Shown piece by piece: positions 18,501-20,640 of a stretch of DNA of 64,000 bases. Each line of letters opens with the position of its first letter. The first letter of the stretch is position 1. The translations under genes and the position numbers were made by a program. This stretch comes from Candidatus Omnitrophota bacterium (GTDB lineage Bacteria > Omnitrophota > Gorgyraeia > Zapsychrales > Fredricksoniimonadaceae): assembly GCA_044225175.1 (NCBI GenBank), contig JBGAJA010000004.1, positions 81,631 to 145,630 of the forward strand, given 5' to 3'. Below the pieces are notes generated by a model. That model made no database searches, was not told the DNA's origin, and saw only the letters and a program-made list of their open reading frames with translations.

Positions 18501-18526
18501 AAAAAGGTGTCTGACACCTTTTTTAC
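18501..18526. terminator. Palindromic hairpin AAAAAGGTGTCTGACACCTTTTTT between the stop of the TMTC-like gene and the tRNA
   Basis: Same 23-mer as at 1631-1654. It overlaps the TAA stop at 18523-18525. Confidence 0.45.
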
Positions 18527-20640
18527 TTTTTTCTATATGGTGCCAAAGACTTCAGGTATTCAACTGGTGGATTATAGCCTAAAAGCTGGGCTTCTTCCAG
18601 ATAATGAATAGCGCCGGCAAAGTCTCTAGATTTAAAAGAAAGTATCGATAAATTTACAAATGCGCTTTGATGGTTTTTGTTGATGCCAACTGTTTTCAAA
18701 TAAGAAGCCATAGCCTCTGCGTCTTGTCCTAGCTGAGCATATACATTTCCCATATTGTAGTAAGCTTCTGCCTGCTGAGAATCTTTTTCTAAAGATTTTT
18801 CGTAATAATTTAAAGCTTCTTTCAACTCTCCTGCCGACTCAGATAGGTACCCCAAATAAAAATAAGGTTTGGCATCCCTAGGGTCTAAATTTATTGCTTT
18901 TTGATAAAACATTCTTGAGCGATCAAGATCAGAAAGCGCATTGTAAATAATCCCAAGGTTTAAATAACCTTGAGCATGCTTTGGATAAAAGTGCAGCAAT
19001 TGTTGGTAAACCATAAGAGCACTCTTTAAATCCCCCATTTGTTGGTAACGATTGCCCAGATTTAATAATGCCTTCTCATAACGAGGATTTAACTCCAAAG
19101 ACTTCTTATAAAAACGAATCGCTTCTTCAAAACCACCAACCTGCTCATACAAGAAACCCAAATTTAAATAGTCTGCCGCTGTGTATTTCTTTCTTTTCGA
19201 TATCTCTTCAAAATTTGAAAGAACTTCTTCTCTTTGCTCCTGATACAGTTTTTCTTGAGGATTCTTTTCAATACCATCGGAATAGGCTTTAATAATACGC
19301 GAATAAATCTCTTCATCTTCAGGATTGAATTTTAAAAGACGATTAAAATGATCTATCGCACTTCGAGGGTTATTCATCTTTTGAGATAGCACTCCCAAAC
19401 TAAAAAGAACATCTTTCGCCTTTGGATCTATCTCCAAAGCTTTGTTATATATCAACAGCGCTTCATTATTCTTTTCAATGTCCTCATAAACCTTTCCCAA
19501 ATGAAGATAGGAATCCATATAAGTACCATCTTTGCCAATAGCTTGTTTATAAAGGTCAATGACTTCCTCCATCTTCCTAAACTTCGACTTATCAATCGAG
19601 ATCTTATTCTCAGCAGCTCCTTGCGAAACCAATTCCACATATGCACGATAATCATTTTGCGACTGTTGGTATTCTGGAGTTTTCTCAATAGCTTCAGCCA
19701 AATAATTAAAAATAACTGGCCGGGGATTAAGTTTTAGCTGATGTTTCCACAAACTTACAGTATCTAACCAAACAAAACACTGGTAATAGGTTAAAATGGA
19801 CAAGCCCATCAAGAGCGTAGCTAAAGCAGCCATAAAGATCTGACCCAAGATTGCTTCCTGAGTCTTTAAAAACCGATACAAACGCCCTATCCAAAAAGCA
19901 GTGAATAAAGATACCATCACTAATGGTAAATAGAACAAATGATCTCTAAATAAGAAAGGTGGTGAAAGAAATATTGCTTTATTGTTAATGATTGCAAAAA
20001 CAAATGCAATCAGAAGAAATGGCCAGTATTTTATAAGATTGATTTGTTTTTTCTTTATCCAATCCATACAAATAATTGCCAATGGCAGACTAATCGCATG
20101 AGCTGAAGAAAGCATACTTAACAAGGCAAAAACTAAGCTTAATCTGAAGTTATCATTACGGTAATAAAGGATGGATAATAAATAAAACAAAACATACAGA
20201 AGCTCTTTTCTTTGCGATAGCCATCCTACCACCTCGACTTGTAAAGGATTTAACGCAAAAATTAAAGCTCCTCCAAATGCTTCAAAAAGACTCAGCTCAA
20301 AACTTATGGCCAATAAAAAAACTAAAATCACCACAGCGATATGCAGCAAAACATTGTCCAAATGAAACAGTAATGGGTTGAACCCCGCAATAAGACGCTC
20401 CAAAGAATAAGATAAAATGGGTATGGGAATATATTGATGATCGAATGAACGAGTTAGTATCGCCTTAATGTGCGCTCCATCAAAATTCTGCACATTGACA
20501 TTCTTAGTAATTAAAAGATCATCTTTATAGGAAAGAAAATGCGCTTTTAGAAGAGGACTGTAGCTTAAGAAAGTACACACAATTAATAATAAAATTAAGA
20601 GTGTTCTCCTTGAGGAAAATAACCGCGAGAATAAAGACAT
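18523..20640 (-). CDS. TMTC-like protein: N-terminal polytopic GT-C (PMT_2/DUF1736-like) domain fused to C-terminal TPR repeats
   Basis: 705 aa. The first ~300 aa contain ~9 TM helices, with YKDDLLITKN after TM1 and a ...LNPLQVEVVGWLSQRKELL motif resembling the DD and hP.h.E.V motifs of TMTC/PMT-like O-mannosyltransferases. The remaining ~400 aa are at least 9 TPR repeats. Confidence 0.55.
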   Translation of the reverse strand: MSLFSRLFSSRRTLLILLLIVCTFLSYSPLLKAHFLSYKDDLLITKNVNVQNFDGAHIKAILTRSFDHQYIPIPILSYSLERLIAGFNPLLFHLDNVLLHIAVVILVFLLAISFELSLFEAFGGALIFALNPLQVEVVGWLSQRKELLYVLFYLLSILYYRNDNFRLSLVFALLSMLSSAHAISLPLAIICMDWIKKKQINLIKYWPFLLIAFVFAIINNKAIFLSPPFLFRDHLFYLPLVMVSLFTAFWIGRLYRFLKTQEAILGQIFMAALATLLMGLSILTYYQCFVWLDTVSLWKHQLKLNPRPVIFNYLAEAIEKTPEYQQSQNDYRAYVELVSQGAAENKISIDKSKFRKMEEVIDLYKQAIGKDGTYMDSYLHLGKVYEDIEKNNEALLIYNKALEIDPKAKDVLFSLGVLSQKMNNPRSAIDHFNRLLKFNPEDEEIYSRIIKAYSDGIEKNPQEKLYQEQREEVLSNFEEISKRKKYTAADYLNLGFLYEQVGGFEEAIRFYKKSLELNPRYEKALLNLGNRYQQMGDLKSALMVYQQLLHFYPKHAQGYLNLGIIYNALSDLDRSRMFYQKAINLDPRDAKPYFYLGYLSESAGELKEALNYYEKSLEKDSQQAEAYYNMGNVYAQLGQDAEAMASYLKTVGINKNHQSAFVNLSILSFKSRDFAGAIHYLEEAQLLGYNPPVEYLKSLAPYRKK

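What the first reader, a model, noticed from the sequence alone, without database searches (positions are those of the whole stretch)
18523..20640. Bacterial TMTC-like protein (GT-C membrane domain plus TPR array)
The N-terminal ~300 aa are polytopic and carry a DD-containing loop after TM1 (YKDDLLITKN) and an LNPLQVEVVGW...R..LL motif. The C-terminal ~400 aa are TPR repeats. This is the TMTC / DUF1736 architecture, associated in animals with O-mannosylation of cadherins. It sits next to a Ser/Thr-repeat secreted protein and in the same cluster as a Dpm1-like GT2, which makes a catalytic role plausible here.
Basis: partly seen in the sequence, partly recalled or inferred. Interest (0 to 1): 0.6.

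Follow-up and report, generated by a model that had tools for sequence, protein, structure and literature searches.

The report
Eroded bacterial TMTC-like TPR membrane protein
This Omnitrophota gene is a real bacterial relative of the animal TMTC O-mannosyltransferases, but its membrane domain has lost residues and a loop that such enzymes need, so it is more likely a membrane-anchored TPR scaffold than a working enzyme.

Summary
The ORF is real (minus strand, 705 aa). It has a 9-helix membrane domain and about ten periplasmic TPRs, and the quoted motifs are present.

Homology to TMTC is confirmed. The membrane domain alone hits seven of eight animal TMTC1-4 sequences at E 3e-10 to 4e-6. The bacterial family profile hits all eight at 7e-33 to 6e-48. 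The AF2 model (pLDDT 92.8) matches only GT-C enzymes.

The "DUF1736" part is missing. The EL4 loop, TM8 and TM9 are deleted. The universal GT-C Asp is Lys (K39), the M4 Lys is Ser (S179) and the HP His is Asn (N131).

Orthologs in the same synteny (sigma70, LacI-like, apt, gene, tRNA-Arg) occur in 11-TM, 9-TM and ~5-TM forms. The reductions arose independently several times. The TPR domain stays 57-77% identical to the query, against 30-53% for the membrane domain.

The context argument fails. A terminator-like hairpin, tRNA-Arg(CCT) and a promoter separate the gene from the S/T-repeat protein and the GT2. That content differs in all six relatives examined. The GT2's conserved partner is a radical SAM gene.

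The family is very large (at least 55,945 clusters) and its prokaryotic members are already noted in the literature.

Verdict: a degenerating member of a known family, probably non-catalytic. Moderate interest.

The parts
18523..20640 (-). Whole gene: TMTC-like protein of 705 aa (9-TM reduced GT-C module plus TPR domain)
   Evidence: ORF list and translation. An identical protein, P0001, is in the public database.
19768..20640 (-). Membrane domain, aa 1-291. It comprises TM1-TM7 of the conserved GT-C module, a short fused EL4/EL5 loop, then TM10-TM11.
   Evidence: AF2 model: pLDDT 92.8, pTM 0.91. Foldseek top hits are STT3, AglB, Pmt1/2/4, ArnT and DPY19. HMMER against TMTC1-4 gives E 3e-10 to 4e-6.
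20518..20526 (-). K39-D40-D41, the counterpart of the TMTC M1 'DD' motif. K39 replaces the universal GT-C Asp. D40 is the invariant second acidic residue.
   Evidence: Alignments. The outgroup has D at 21/21 where the query has K. The register comes from PMC7801869: TMTC1 D52/D53 = ArnT D55/E56 = Pmt1 D77/E78.
20203..20259 (-). EL2 motif FALNPLQVEVVGWLSQRKE (aa 128-146). It corresponds to TMTC 'FAVHPIHTEAV..GRAD'. P132, E136, W140, R144, K145 and E146 are kept. The family-invariant His is Asn (N131).
20104..20106 (-). S179 at the position of the M4 Lys (TMTC1 K219, ArnT K203), which contacts donor or acceptor in characterised GT-Cs
   Evidence: Outgroup K at 21/21. The whole apt-linked ortholog group has S or N. 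Role of the Lys as described in PMC7801869.
19933..19986 (-). Deletion junction, aa 219-236. About 100 residues present in 11-TM relatives are missing here: the EL4 juxtamembrane helix (the DUF1736-equivalent), TM8 and TM9. A degenerate M7 motif remains (RDHLFY instead of ADRxxY or ERxxY).
   Evidence: Alignments A1 and the mixed alignment. This is the only low-confidence stretch of the AF2 model. The P0005 model has extra helices at 234-251, 271-289 and 294-308.
18526..19755 (-). Periplasmic TPR domain, aa 296-705. About 10 canonical TPRs at aa 364-703, and a conserved C-terminal tail LLGYNPPVEYLKSLAPYRKK.
   Evidence: Pfam TPR families. 34-residue register. 57-77% identity across orthologs, against 30-53% for the membrane domain.
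20644..21165 (-). apt (adenine phosphoribosyltransferase), the conserved upstream operon neighbour. Its stop codon lies 3 nt before the target's ATG.
   Evidence: NCBIfam apt E=2e-72. Sequence TAA-TCC-ATG. Conserved in all seven ortholog loci examined.
18501..18523 (.). Perfect hairpin AAAAAGGTGTC-aga-GACACCTTTTT overlapping the stop codon: a terminator-like element at the gene end
18417..18494 (-). tRNA-Arg(CCT), the conserved downstream boundary of the syntenic block
   Evidence: ARAGORN on the window and on L002, L004, L006 and L008.
18325..18352 (-). Promoter-like site TTGACA-16-TATATT (11 of 12 matches) ahead of the 81-aa ORF. The downstream cluster therefore has its own start.

Best explanation
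The gene encodes an inner-membrane protein of the bacterial TMTC-like family (GT-C membrane module plus periplasmic TPR superhelix). It belongs to an Omnitrophota ortholog group in which the glycosyltransferase module is decaying.

Shown:
- The membrane domain is homologous to TMTC and has a GT-C fold.
- It keeps the conserved TM1-7 module and TM10-11 but lacks EL4 (the DUF1736-equivalent), TM8 and TM9.
- The universal EL1 Asp is Lys (K39), the M4 Lys is Ser (S179), and the family-invariant His of the HP motif is Asn (N131).
- Orthologs at the same locus exist as 11-TM, 9-TM and ~5-TM forms, and the reductions arose independently.
- The TPR domain and a C-terminal tail stay well conserved.

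Inferred:
- Sugar transfer was lost, or became dispensable, at the base of this ortholog group.
- The selected function lies in the membrane-anchored TPR domain, which binds periplasmic or secreted partner proteins. The TPR domain of the related enzyme TMEM260 binds acceptor peptides in this way.
- The 9-TM bundle now serves mainly as an anchor. Because D40, E136 and R144/K145 persist, it may still bind polyprenyl phosphate.
- The gene is expressed with apt, a LacI-like binding protein and a sigma-70 factor, not with the neighbouring glycosylation-type genes.
For: - Homology and fold.
- Deletion of EL4, TM8 and TM9: and the model comparison.
- Loss of residues invariant in 21/21 outgroup sequences (D to K39, H to N131, K to S179). 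The query keeps only 31 of 46 family-conserved positions.
- PMC7801869 states that every GT-C found shares the first Asp of the DD motif, that these positions are critical for catalysis, and that any replacement of Pmt1 D77/E78 abolishes function. It also describes the roles of the M4 Lys and M7 Arg. In TMEM260, the corresponding Asp mutant D52A is inactive, and so are loop mutants R264A and Y267A.
- Ortholog reduction series in conserved synteny.
- Independent origins: 'all 9-TM monophyletic' and 'all 5-TM monophyletic' each occur in 0 of 500 bootstraps, while the query clade occurs in 489 of 500.
- TPR identity 57-77% against membrane 30-53%.
- The 11-TM form is the norm among the best of at least 55,945 family clusters.
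Against: - D40, N47, Y70/P72, H93, H100, P132, E136, W140, R144/K145 and Y237 are still invariant in all 9-TM and 11-TM orthologs. This argues for continued constraint on the periplasmic face of the module, and so possibly for residual catalysis or donor binding.
- D41 follows D40, so an acidic pair exists one position out of register and could in principle substitute.
- His at the M7 Arg position occurs in many other family members as well.
- No bacterial member of the family has been characterised. Which residues are essential is therefore extrapolated from eukaryotic TMTC models and from other GT-Cs.
- The tree is a distance tree on 15 sequences.
- I could not check whether the genome has a full-length paralog.
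Confidence: 0.58

Rival explanations
1. It is still an active, unusually small (9-TM) GT-C protein O-glycosyltransferase. It uses a polyprenyl-phosphate monosaccharide in the periplasm. D40/D41 and E136 act as catalytic or donor-positioning residues, and the TPR domain selects acceptor proteins, as proposed for TMTCs.
For: There is significant homology to TMTC and a GT-C fold. The conserved TM1-7 module is intact with high model confidence. D40, E136, R144/K145, H93 and H100 are invariant across 9-TM and 11-TM orthologs. The periplasmic TPR topology is retained because an even number of TMs was deleted.
Against: The universal EL1 Asp is Lys. The M4 Lys and the HP His are lost. EL4, TM8 and TM9 are deleted. 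The equivalent loop and residues are required in characterised GT-Cs. Orthologs at the same locus go on to lose EL1, EL2 and EL3 entirely while keeping the TPR domain.
Confidence: 0.27
2. The protein O-glycosylates the adjacent (GSST)n secreted protein, using a lipid-linked sugar made by the nearby Dpm1/ArnC-like GT2, as one functional cluster.
For: The genes lie within about 3 kb on the same strand. The S/T-rich repeat protein has a signal peptide. The GT2 is of the polyprenyl-phosphate sugar synthase type.
Against: A hairpin terminator, tRNA-Arg and a near-consensus promoter separate them. All six relatives examined have different genes after the tRNA. GT2 orthologs (60-64% identity) pair with the radical SAM gene and, in two loci, sit next to YfhO-type GT-Cs. 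None of the 7 loci holds a TMTC-like domain. Another GT-C (PMT_2, 4974-6509) is present in the window. The target also lacks key catalytic features.
Confidence: 0.06
3. The N-terminal domain is not a GT-C at all (for example an O-antigen ligase/Wzy-type protein or a transporter), and the TMTC resemblance is due to chance hydrophobic similarity.
For: There is no direct Pfam hit for the query's N-terminus even at E<=10. The profile gets no hit against PDB sequences. Foldseek E-values are modest (0.014 to 0.5) with TM-scores of 0.36-0.45.
Against: HMMER E-values to TMTCs are 3e-10 to 4e-6 for the query alone and down to 6e-48 for the family profile, with motif-by-motif correspondence. Homologs pass PMT_2/PMT gathering thresholds over the aligned region. 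Every one of the top 18 fold hits is a GT-C, at probability 0.85-1.0 (0.97 or more for 15 of them).
Confidence: 0.02

Closest known systems
Animal TMTC1-4 (protein O-mannosyltransferases for cadherins; GT-C/PMT clan; Eisenhaber et al. 2021, PMC7801869)
   Same: Same two-part architecture: an N-terminal GT-C membrane domain, then TPRs on the non-cytoplasmic side. There is significant sequence homology of the membrane domain. Shared motifs are F..(D)D....N in EL1, Y.P of M2, YHL.N.LLH in TM2, FA..P...E.V in EL2, R.(D/E) of M3, and (D/E).xxY.P before TM10.
   Different: - 9 TMs rather than 11.
- No EL4/DUF1736 loop (M5), no TM8, no TM9 (M6).
- The first Asp of the DD motif is Lys.
- The M4 Lys-Glu pair is Ser-Ala.
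- The M7 Arg is His.
- The His-Lys of M2 is absent.
- It is a bacterial periplasmic protein rather than an ER protein, so a donor, if any, would be a bacterial polyprenyl phosphate (my own knowledge).
- No activity is known.
Bacterial TMTC-like 'tetratricopeptide repeat protein' family. IMG/JGI names many members 'protein O-mannosyl-transferase'. PMC7801869 notes essentially full-length prokaryotic homologs, for example AMJ42_05695.
   Same: The query is a member by sequence (E down to 1e-100 to its close relatives). [quoted passage not shown]
   Different: Typical members have 11 TMs with W-D-D, H-P..VESVAW.SERKD, S-K-P and VADR..YLP motifs. The query's ortholog group has lost the first D and the K. 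The query's clade has also lost the H and the EL4-TM8-TM9 block.
Structurally characterised GT-C enzymes: ArnT (5ezm/5f15), Pmt1-Pmt2 (6p25), STT3/PglB/AglB
   Same: The fold of the conserved N-terminal module matches (Foldseek probability 0.91-1.0 for these enzymes). An acidic residue lies at the start of the first juxtamembrane helix of EL1.
   Different: There is no detectable sequence similarity. TM-scores are only 0.36-0.45. The long external loop after TM7 that binds donor or acceptor in these enzymes is missing. The residue aligned to ArnT D55, PglB D56 and Pmt1 D77 is Lys.
TMEM260 (GT-C plus TPR O-mannosyltransferase; bioRxiv 10.64898/2026.03.17.711096)
   Same: Same design logic: a GT-C 'wrist' with a TPR domain that binds the acceptor peptide.
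   Different: No Pfam family of any kind matched the query's membrane domain. I did not compare it directly with TMEM260. TMEM260 has an extra luminal domain that carries the catalytic base.

Membership tests
GT-C glycosyltransferase superfamily (GT-C_A type fold) | Polytopic membrane domain whose fold matches solved GT-C enzymes | tested here: met
GT-C glycosyltransferase superfamily (GT-C_A type fold) | Conserved Asp in the first external loop (ArnT D55, PglB D56, Pmt1 D77, TMTC1 D52) | tested here: not met
   The aligned residue is K39. The outgroup has D at 21/21. Register from PMC7801869. The adjacent D40, equivalent to ArnT E56 and Pmt1 E78, is retained.
GT-C glycosyltransferase superfamily (GT-C_A type fold) | Long external loop after TM7 (EL4; EL5 in OSTs) that contributes to donor or acceptor binding | tested here: not met
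   Only 18 low-confidence residues link TM7 to TM10. The loop helix, TM8 and TM9 are present in the 11-TM ortholog model and in family alignments.
GT-C glycosyltransferase superfamily (GT-C_A type fold) | Transfer of sugar from a polyprenyl-phosphate donor | not testable with these tools
   Needs biochemistry.
TMTC / TMTC-like | Significant sequence homology of the membrane domain to TMTC1-4 | tested here: met
   phmmer of query aa 1-290 against 8 animal TMTC N-terminal regions: seven hit at E 3e-10 to 4e-6. The family profile A2 hits all eight at E 7e-33 to 6e-48. Search space set to 1e6.
TMTC / TMTC-like | C-terminal TPR array on the non-cytoplasmic side | tested here: met
   About 10 TPRs. 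An odd TM count (9) and positive-inside loop charges place the C-terminus outside. The topology is inferred, not measured.
TMTC / TMTC-like | Eleven TM helices | tested here: not met
   Nine. TM8 and TM9 are deleted.
TMTC / TMTC-like | DUF1736 (PF08409) segment, the EL4 loop between TM7 and TM8 carrying M5 'DW' | tested here: not met
   No Pfam hit at E<=10. The aligned region is a gap in the query. PF08409 is also absent from the bacterial homologs' listed precomputed domains and from direct scans of eight homolog N-terminal domains.
TMTC / TMTC-like | Motifs M1 (DD), M2 (SHKSYRP), M3 (RxD), M4 (KE[T/Q]xxT), M6 (PxxP), M7 (ERxxY) | tested here: not met
   M1 is K-D (half kept). M2 keeps only Y70 and P72. 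M3 is kept as R144-K-E146. M4 is S179-A180 (lost). M6 is deleted. M7 is D233-H234..Y237 (Arg lost).
Pfam PMT_2 (PF13231) / PMT (PF02366) | Score above the gathering threshold | tested here: not met
   The query gets no hit. Homologs P0075 (40.3 bits) and P0064 (PMT_2 32.6 bits, PMT 23.6 bits) pass over the region that aligns to query aa ~60-215. Membership of the clan is therefore transitive only.
   No such Pfam or NCBIfam hit. No such protein appears among the GT-C-dominated top fold hits.

The most novel reading that the evidence does not exclude
The 9-TM form is a still-functional 'minimal' GT-C. It would glycosylate (or bind polyprenyl-phosphate sugar) without the canonical EL1 Asp, without the M4 Lys and without any EL4 loop, using D40/D41 and E136 instead. 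That would redefine the minimal catalytic core of lipid-linked-sugar transferases. Alternatively, the series from 11 TM to 9 TM to ~5 TM documents step by step how a GT-C enzyme becomes a pure TPR scaffold, which would be the first described GT-C pseudoenzyme lineage.
Probability: 0.2. Interest if true: 0.6.

Novelty: new variant of a known kind. Interest (0 to 1): 0.35.

Why it matters
Bacterial TMTC-like proteins form a very large family (at least 55,945 clusters at 50% identity). I found no experimental study of any bacterial member in the paper library searched. The family is homologous to human disease genes.

This locus does not add a new kind of system. It does provide a natural deletion series at one orthologous locus. 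Within that series, the TPR domain and two pairs of flanking TM helices are indispensable, while the EL1 Asp, the M4 Lys, EL4/TM8-9 and finally the whole active-site face of the GT-C module are dispensable.

That has two uses. It is a caution against annotating every such protein as a 'protein O-mannosyl-transferase'. It is also a guide to which residues to mutate when a bacterial member is first studied.

The work also shows that the apparent glycosylation 'cluster' next to the gene is variable content lying beyond a conserved tRNA-Arg gene.

Tried and rejected
- A direct Pfam scan of the N-terminal 338 aa at E<=10 found nothing.
- The first profile search against PDB sequences was swamped by the first TPR. 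After trimming to the membrane domain there were 0 hits, so sequence cannot link the domain to a solved structure.
- Foldseek with the full-length 11-TM ortholog model returned only TPR proteins and said nothing about the GT-C part.
- The idea that the 956-aa neighbour (10239-13109) is the GT-C partner of the GT2 found no support. It has no homologs in the database. It has no HMMER similarity to the TMTC-like profile (scores negative) and none to YfhO-like ORFs found near GT2 orthologs. A visual resemblance at aa ~527-600 is unsupported.
- My first motif register, in which D40 was the universal catalytic Asp, was wrong. I corrected it after re-indexing the published alignment and reading the paper's text.
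- A Biopython bootstrap timed out and was replaced by a numpy NJ bootstrap.
- The giant WD40/AAA ORFs were considered as possible substrates and dismissed as cytoplasmic-type proteins.
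Full report
**Observation**

Window 18523-20640 holds one ORF of 705 aa on the minus strand. Pfam and NCBIfam see only TPRs in the C-terminal half (TPR_1 E=7e-38). The N-terminal 338 aa match no Pfam family even at E<=10. About ten 34-residue TPRs lie in continuous register at aa 364-703.

**What the N-terminal domain is**

A database search with the full protein returned 402 hits. Many are named 'protein O-mannosyl-transferase' by JGI, and several are from Candidatus Omnitrophica.

The membrane domain alone aligns to these proteins at E 1e-20 to 1e-100. 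Three of them (P0075, P0064 and, just below threshold, P0043) match Pfam PMT_2/PMT over the stretch that aligns to query aa ~60-215.

An AF2 model of aa 1-335, built on a 29-sequence alignment, is confident: pLDDT 92.8, pTM 0.91. Its 18 best Foldseek matches in the PDB are all GT-C lipid-linked-sugar transferases: STT3/AglB, Pmt1/2/4 and ArnT. Probabilities are 0.85-1.0, but E-values (0.014-0.5) and TM-scores (0.36-0.45) are modest.

A membrane-only profile (A2) finds nothing among PDB sequences.

To test the TMTC claim directly I took the published TMTC1-4 N-terminal alignment from the supplement of Eisenhaber et al. 2021 (PMC7801869). The bacterial profile hits all eight animal TMTC sequences at E 7e-33 to 6e-48. 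The query's 290 aa alone hit seven of them at 3e-10 to 4e-6, with the search space set to 1e6. ArnT is not hit.

The domain is therefore a true TMTC homolog with a GT-C fold.

**How ordinary the family is**

In the exhaustive search of 50% representatives it finds 132,484 clusters at E<=1e-3 and 55,945 at E<=1e-30. The best hits cover the whole 396-position profile.

The members listed span many phyla and nearly all also carry TPRs. PMC7801869 already notes essentially full-length prokaryotic homologs. I found no experimental paper on a bacterial member in the library searched.

**What is unusual here: the GT-C module is eroded**

Aligning the query with family members and with TMTCs shows that about 100 residues are missing between TM7 and TM10.

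The missing block aligns to the TMTC EL4 loop (the DUF1736 segment, which carries motif M5), TM8 and TM9 (motif M6). An AF2 model of the 11-TM ortholog P0005 (pLDDT 90) matches the query helix for helix up to TM7. It then has three extra helices at 234-251, 271-289 and 294-308. In the query, 18 low-confidence residues join TM7 directly to TM10. Because two TMs were lost, the TPRs stay periplasmic.

Of 46 positions conserved in 21 outgroup family members, the query keeps 31. Three residues that are 21/21 invariant in the outgroup are changed:
- the first Asp of W-D-D, now K39;
- the His of H-P, now N131;
- the Lys of S-K-P, now S179.

According to PMC7801869, TMTC1 D52/D53 align with ArnT D55/E56 and Pmt1 D77/E78. 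Every GT-C they found shares the first Asp. They call these positions critical for catalysis, and any replacement of Pmt1 D77/E78 abolishes function. The M4 Lys corresponds to ArnT K203. The M7 Arg binds the donor phosphate in OSTs. In the query these positions are K39, S179 and H234. In TMEM260 the analogous Asp (D52A) and loop residues are likewise essential.

Retained residues are D40 (the second acidic residue), N47, Y70/P72, H93, H100, P132, E136, W140, R144-K145-E146 and Y237.

**Orthologs show a reduction series**

The gene lies in a conserved block: class II aaRS, PPDK, sigma-70, HTH-less LacI-like protein, apt, this gene. The full block is seen in five relatives, and the shorter contigs of two more (L008, L010) show its sigma-70-to-gene part. 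tRNA-Arg(CCT) follows the gene in the window and in the four relatives scanned for tRNAs.

At this one locus the protein occurs in three forms:
- an 11-TM form: P0005, P0007, P0009, P0011;
- a 9-TM form: the query, P0002, P0003, P0004, P0010;
- a ~5-TM form: P0012, P0013 and the L010 ORF. This form lacks the whole EL1 DD loop, EL2 and EL3.

Even the 11-TM orthologs lack the first Asp (N, A or G instead) and the M4 Lys (N or S).

Identity to the query is 57-77% in the TPR domain but only 30-53% in the membrane domain. A C-terminal tail, LLGYNPPxxYLKxLxPYRKK, is conserved throughout.

In an NJ bootstrap on the TPR domain, the query's 9-TM clade is supported in 489 of 500 replicates. 'All 9-TM forms monophyletic' and 'all 5-TM forms monophyletic' each occur in 0 of 500. 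The module was therefore truncated at least three times independently.

The simplest reading is that sugar transfer was lost or became dispensable at the base of this ortholog group. The module then decayed, while the TPR domain and a membrane anchor stayed under selection.

**The genomic-context argument fails**

The gene starts 3 nt after the apt stop codon. It ends in a perfect hairpin followed by a T-run (18501-18523). Next come tRNA-Arg(CCT) (18417-18494) and a near-consensus promoter (TTGACA-16-TATATT) ahead of the 81-aa ORF.

Everything beyond the tRNA differs among the six relatives examined. It includes GIY-YIG, serine recombinases, amine oxidase/DsbD and a phosphorylase.

From the other side, GT2 orthologs at 60-64% identity in metagenomes are followed by the same radical SAM/SPASM gene in four of the seven closest loci. 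In two loci they are flanked by YfhO-family GT-Cs. None of the seven loci contains a TMTC-like domain.

The window also holds a separate GT-C that passes the PMT_2 threshold (4974-6509).

The S/T-repeat protein and the GT2 are real and adjacent. They are not conserved partners of this gene and probably not co-transcribed with it.

**Verdict**

The TMTC-like architecture is correct. The DUF1736 element, the intact DD motif and the cluster argument are not.
- The best explanation (confidence about 0.58) is a degenerating, probably non-catalytic TMTC-like protein that works through its membrane-anchored periplasmic TPR domain.
- The main rival (about 0.27) is a still-active minimal GT-C. The persistent invariance of D40, E136 and R144/K145 supports that view.
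- The kind of protein is known and abundant. This variant is new, and its interest is moderate.

Noticed in passing
window 18417-18494 (-): tRNA-Arg(CCT) lies directly after the target gene. The same tRNA follows the ortholog in L002, L004, L006 and L008. Gene content beyond it differs in every relative, with serine recombinases in L004 and L010. This looks like a variable region or integration hotspot.
   Followed up: yes
window 16930-18036 (-) and 18041-18286 (-): A 368-aa protein with a signal peptide and Cys-rich N- and C-terminal parts. It has a long (GSST)n array encoded by a 24-nt tandem repeat (17168-17526, 15 copies). It is preceded by an 81-aa signal-peptide ORF with a near-consensus promoter. 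Neither has a Pfam family.
   Followed up: partly
window 14885-16907 (-): A GT2 of the PgfS/ArnC/GtrB type (15918-16907) overlaps a radical SAM/SPASM gene (14885-16045). The pair is conserved in 4 of the 7 closest metagenome loci (L016, L018, L020, L021). In L016 and L021 it is flanked by YfhO-family GT-C proteins. The role of a radical SAM enzyme next to a lipid-sugar synthase is unexplained.
   Followed up: partly
window 10239-13109 (+): A 956-aa polytopic membrane protein in a low-GC stretch (0.33-0.35). It has no homolog other than itself among 5.8 billion proteins and no Pfam match. A stretch at aa ~527-600 looks like the GT-C 'LLH...FA..P..VE.V.W' motif, but HMMER scores are negative.
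   Followed up: partly
window 4974-6509 (+): A 511-aa protein that passes the Pfam PMT_2 gathering threshold (27.7 bits against 26.1). It is a conventional ArnT/PMT-type GT-C located just upstream of metH.
   Followed up: no
window 28309-36093 (-) and 36587-47356 (-): Two giant ORFs. One is 2594 aa with multiple WD40 propellers. The other is 3589 aa with an AAA_5 (dynein/MoxR-type) domain and a C-terminal WD40 propeller. Very long proteins have been reported for Omnitrophota (papers listed).
   Followed up: no
window 21172-22020 (-): A LacI-family ligand-binding domain protein of 282 aa. It matches LacI-family regulators only from about profile position 56-70 onward, so it appears to lack the N-terminal HTH. 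It is strictly conserved between a sigma-70 factor and apt in all the ortholog loci.
   Followed up: no
window 13139-14884 (-): A 581-aa membrane protein with a weak, sub-threshold match to PEMT/ICMT-type methyltransferase in its C-terminal part. A gene of similar size (583 aa) lies next to metH in L002, but I did not test whether the two are related.
   Followed up: no
window 18526-18585 (-); also L010 5731-7212, P0012, P0013: All orthologs, including the ~5-TM forms, share a nearly invariant C-terminal tail LLGYNPPxxYLKxLxPYRKK after the last TPR. It may be an interaction motif.
   Followed up: no
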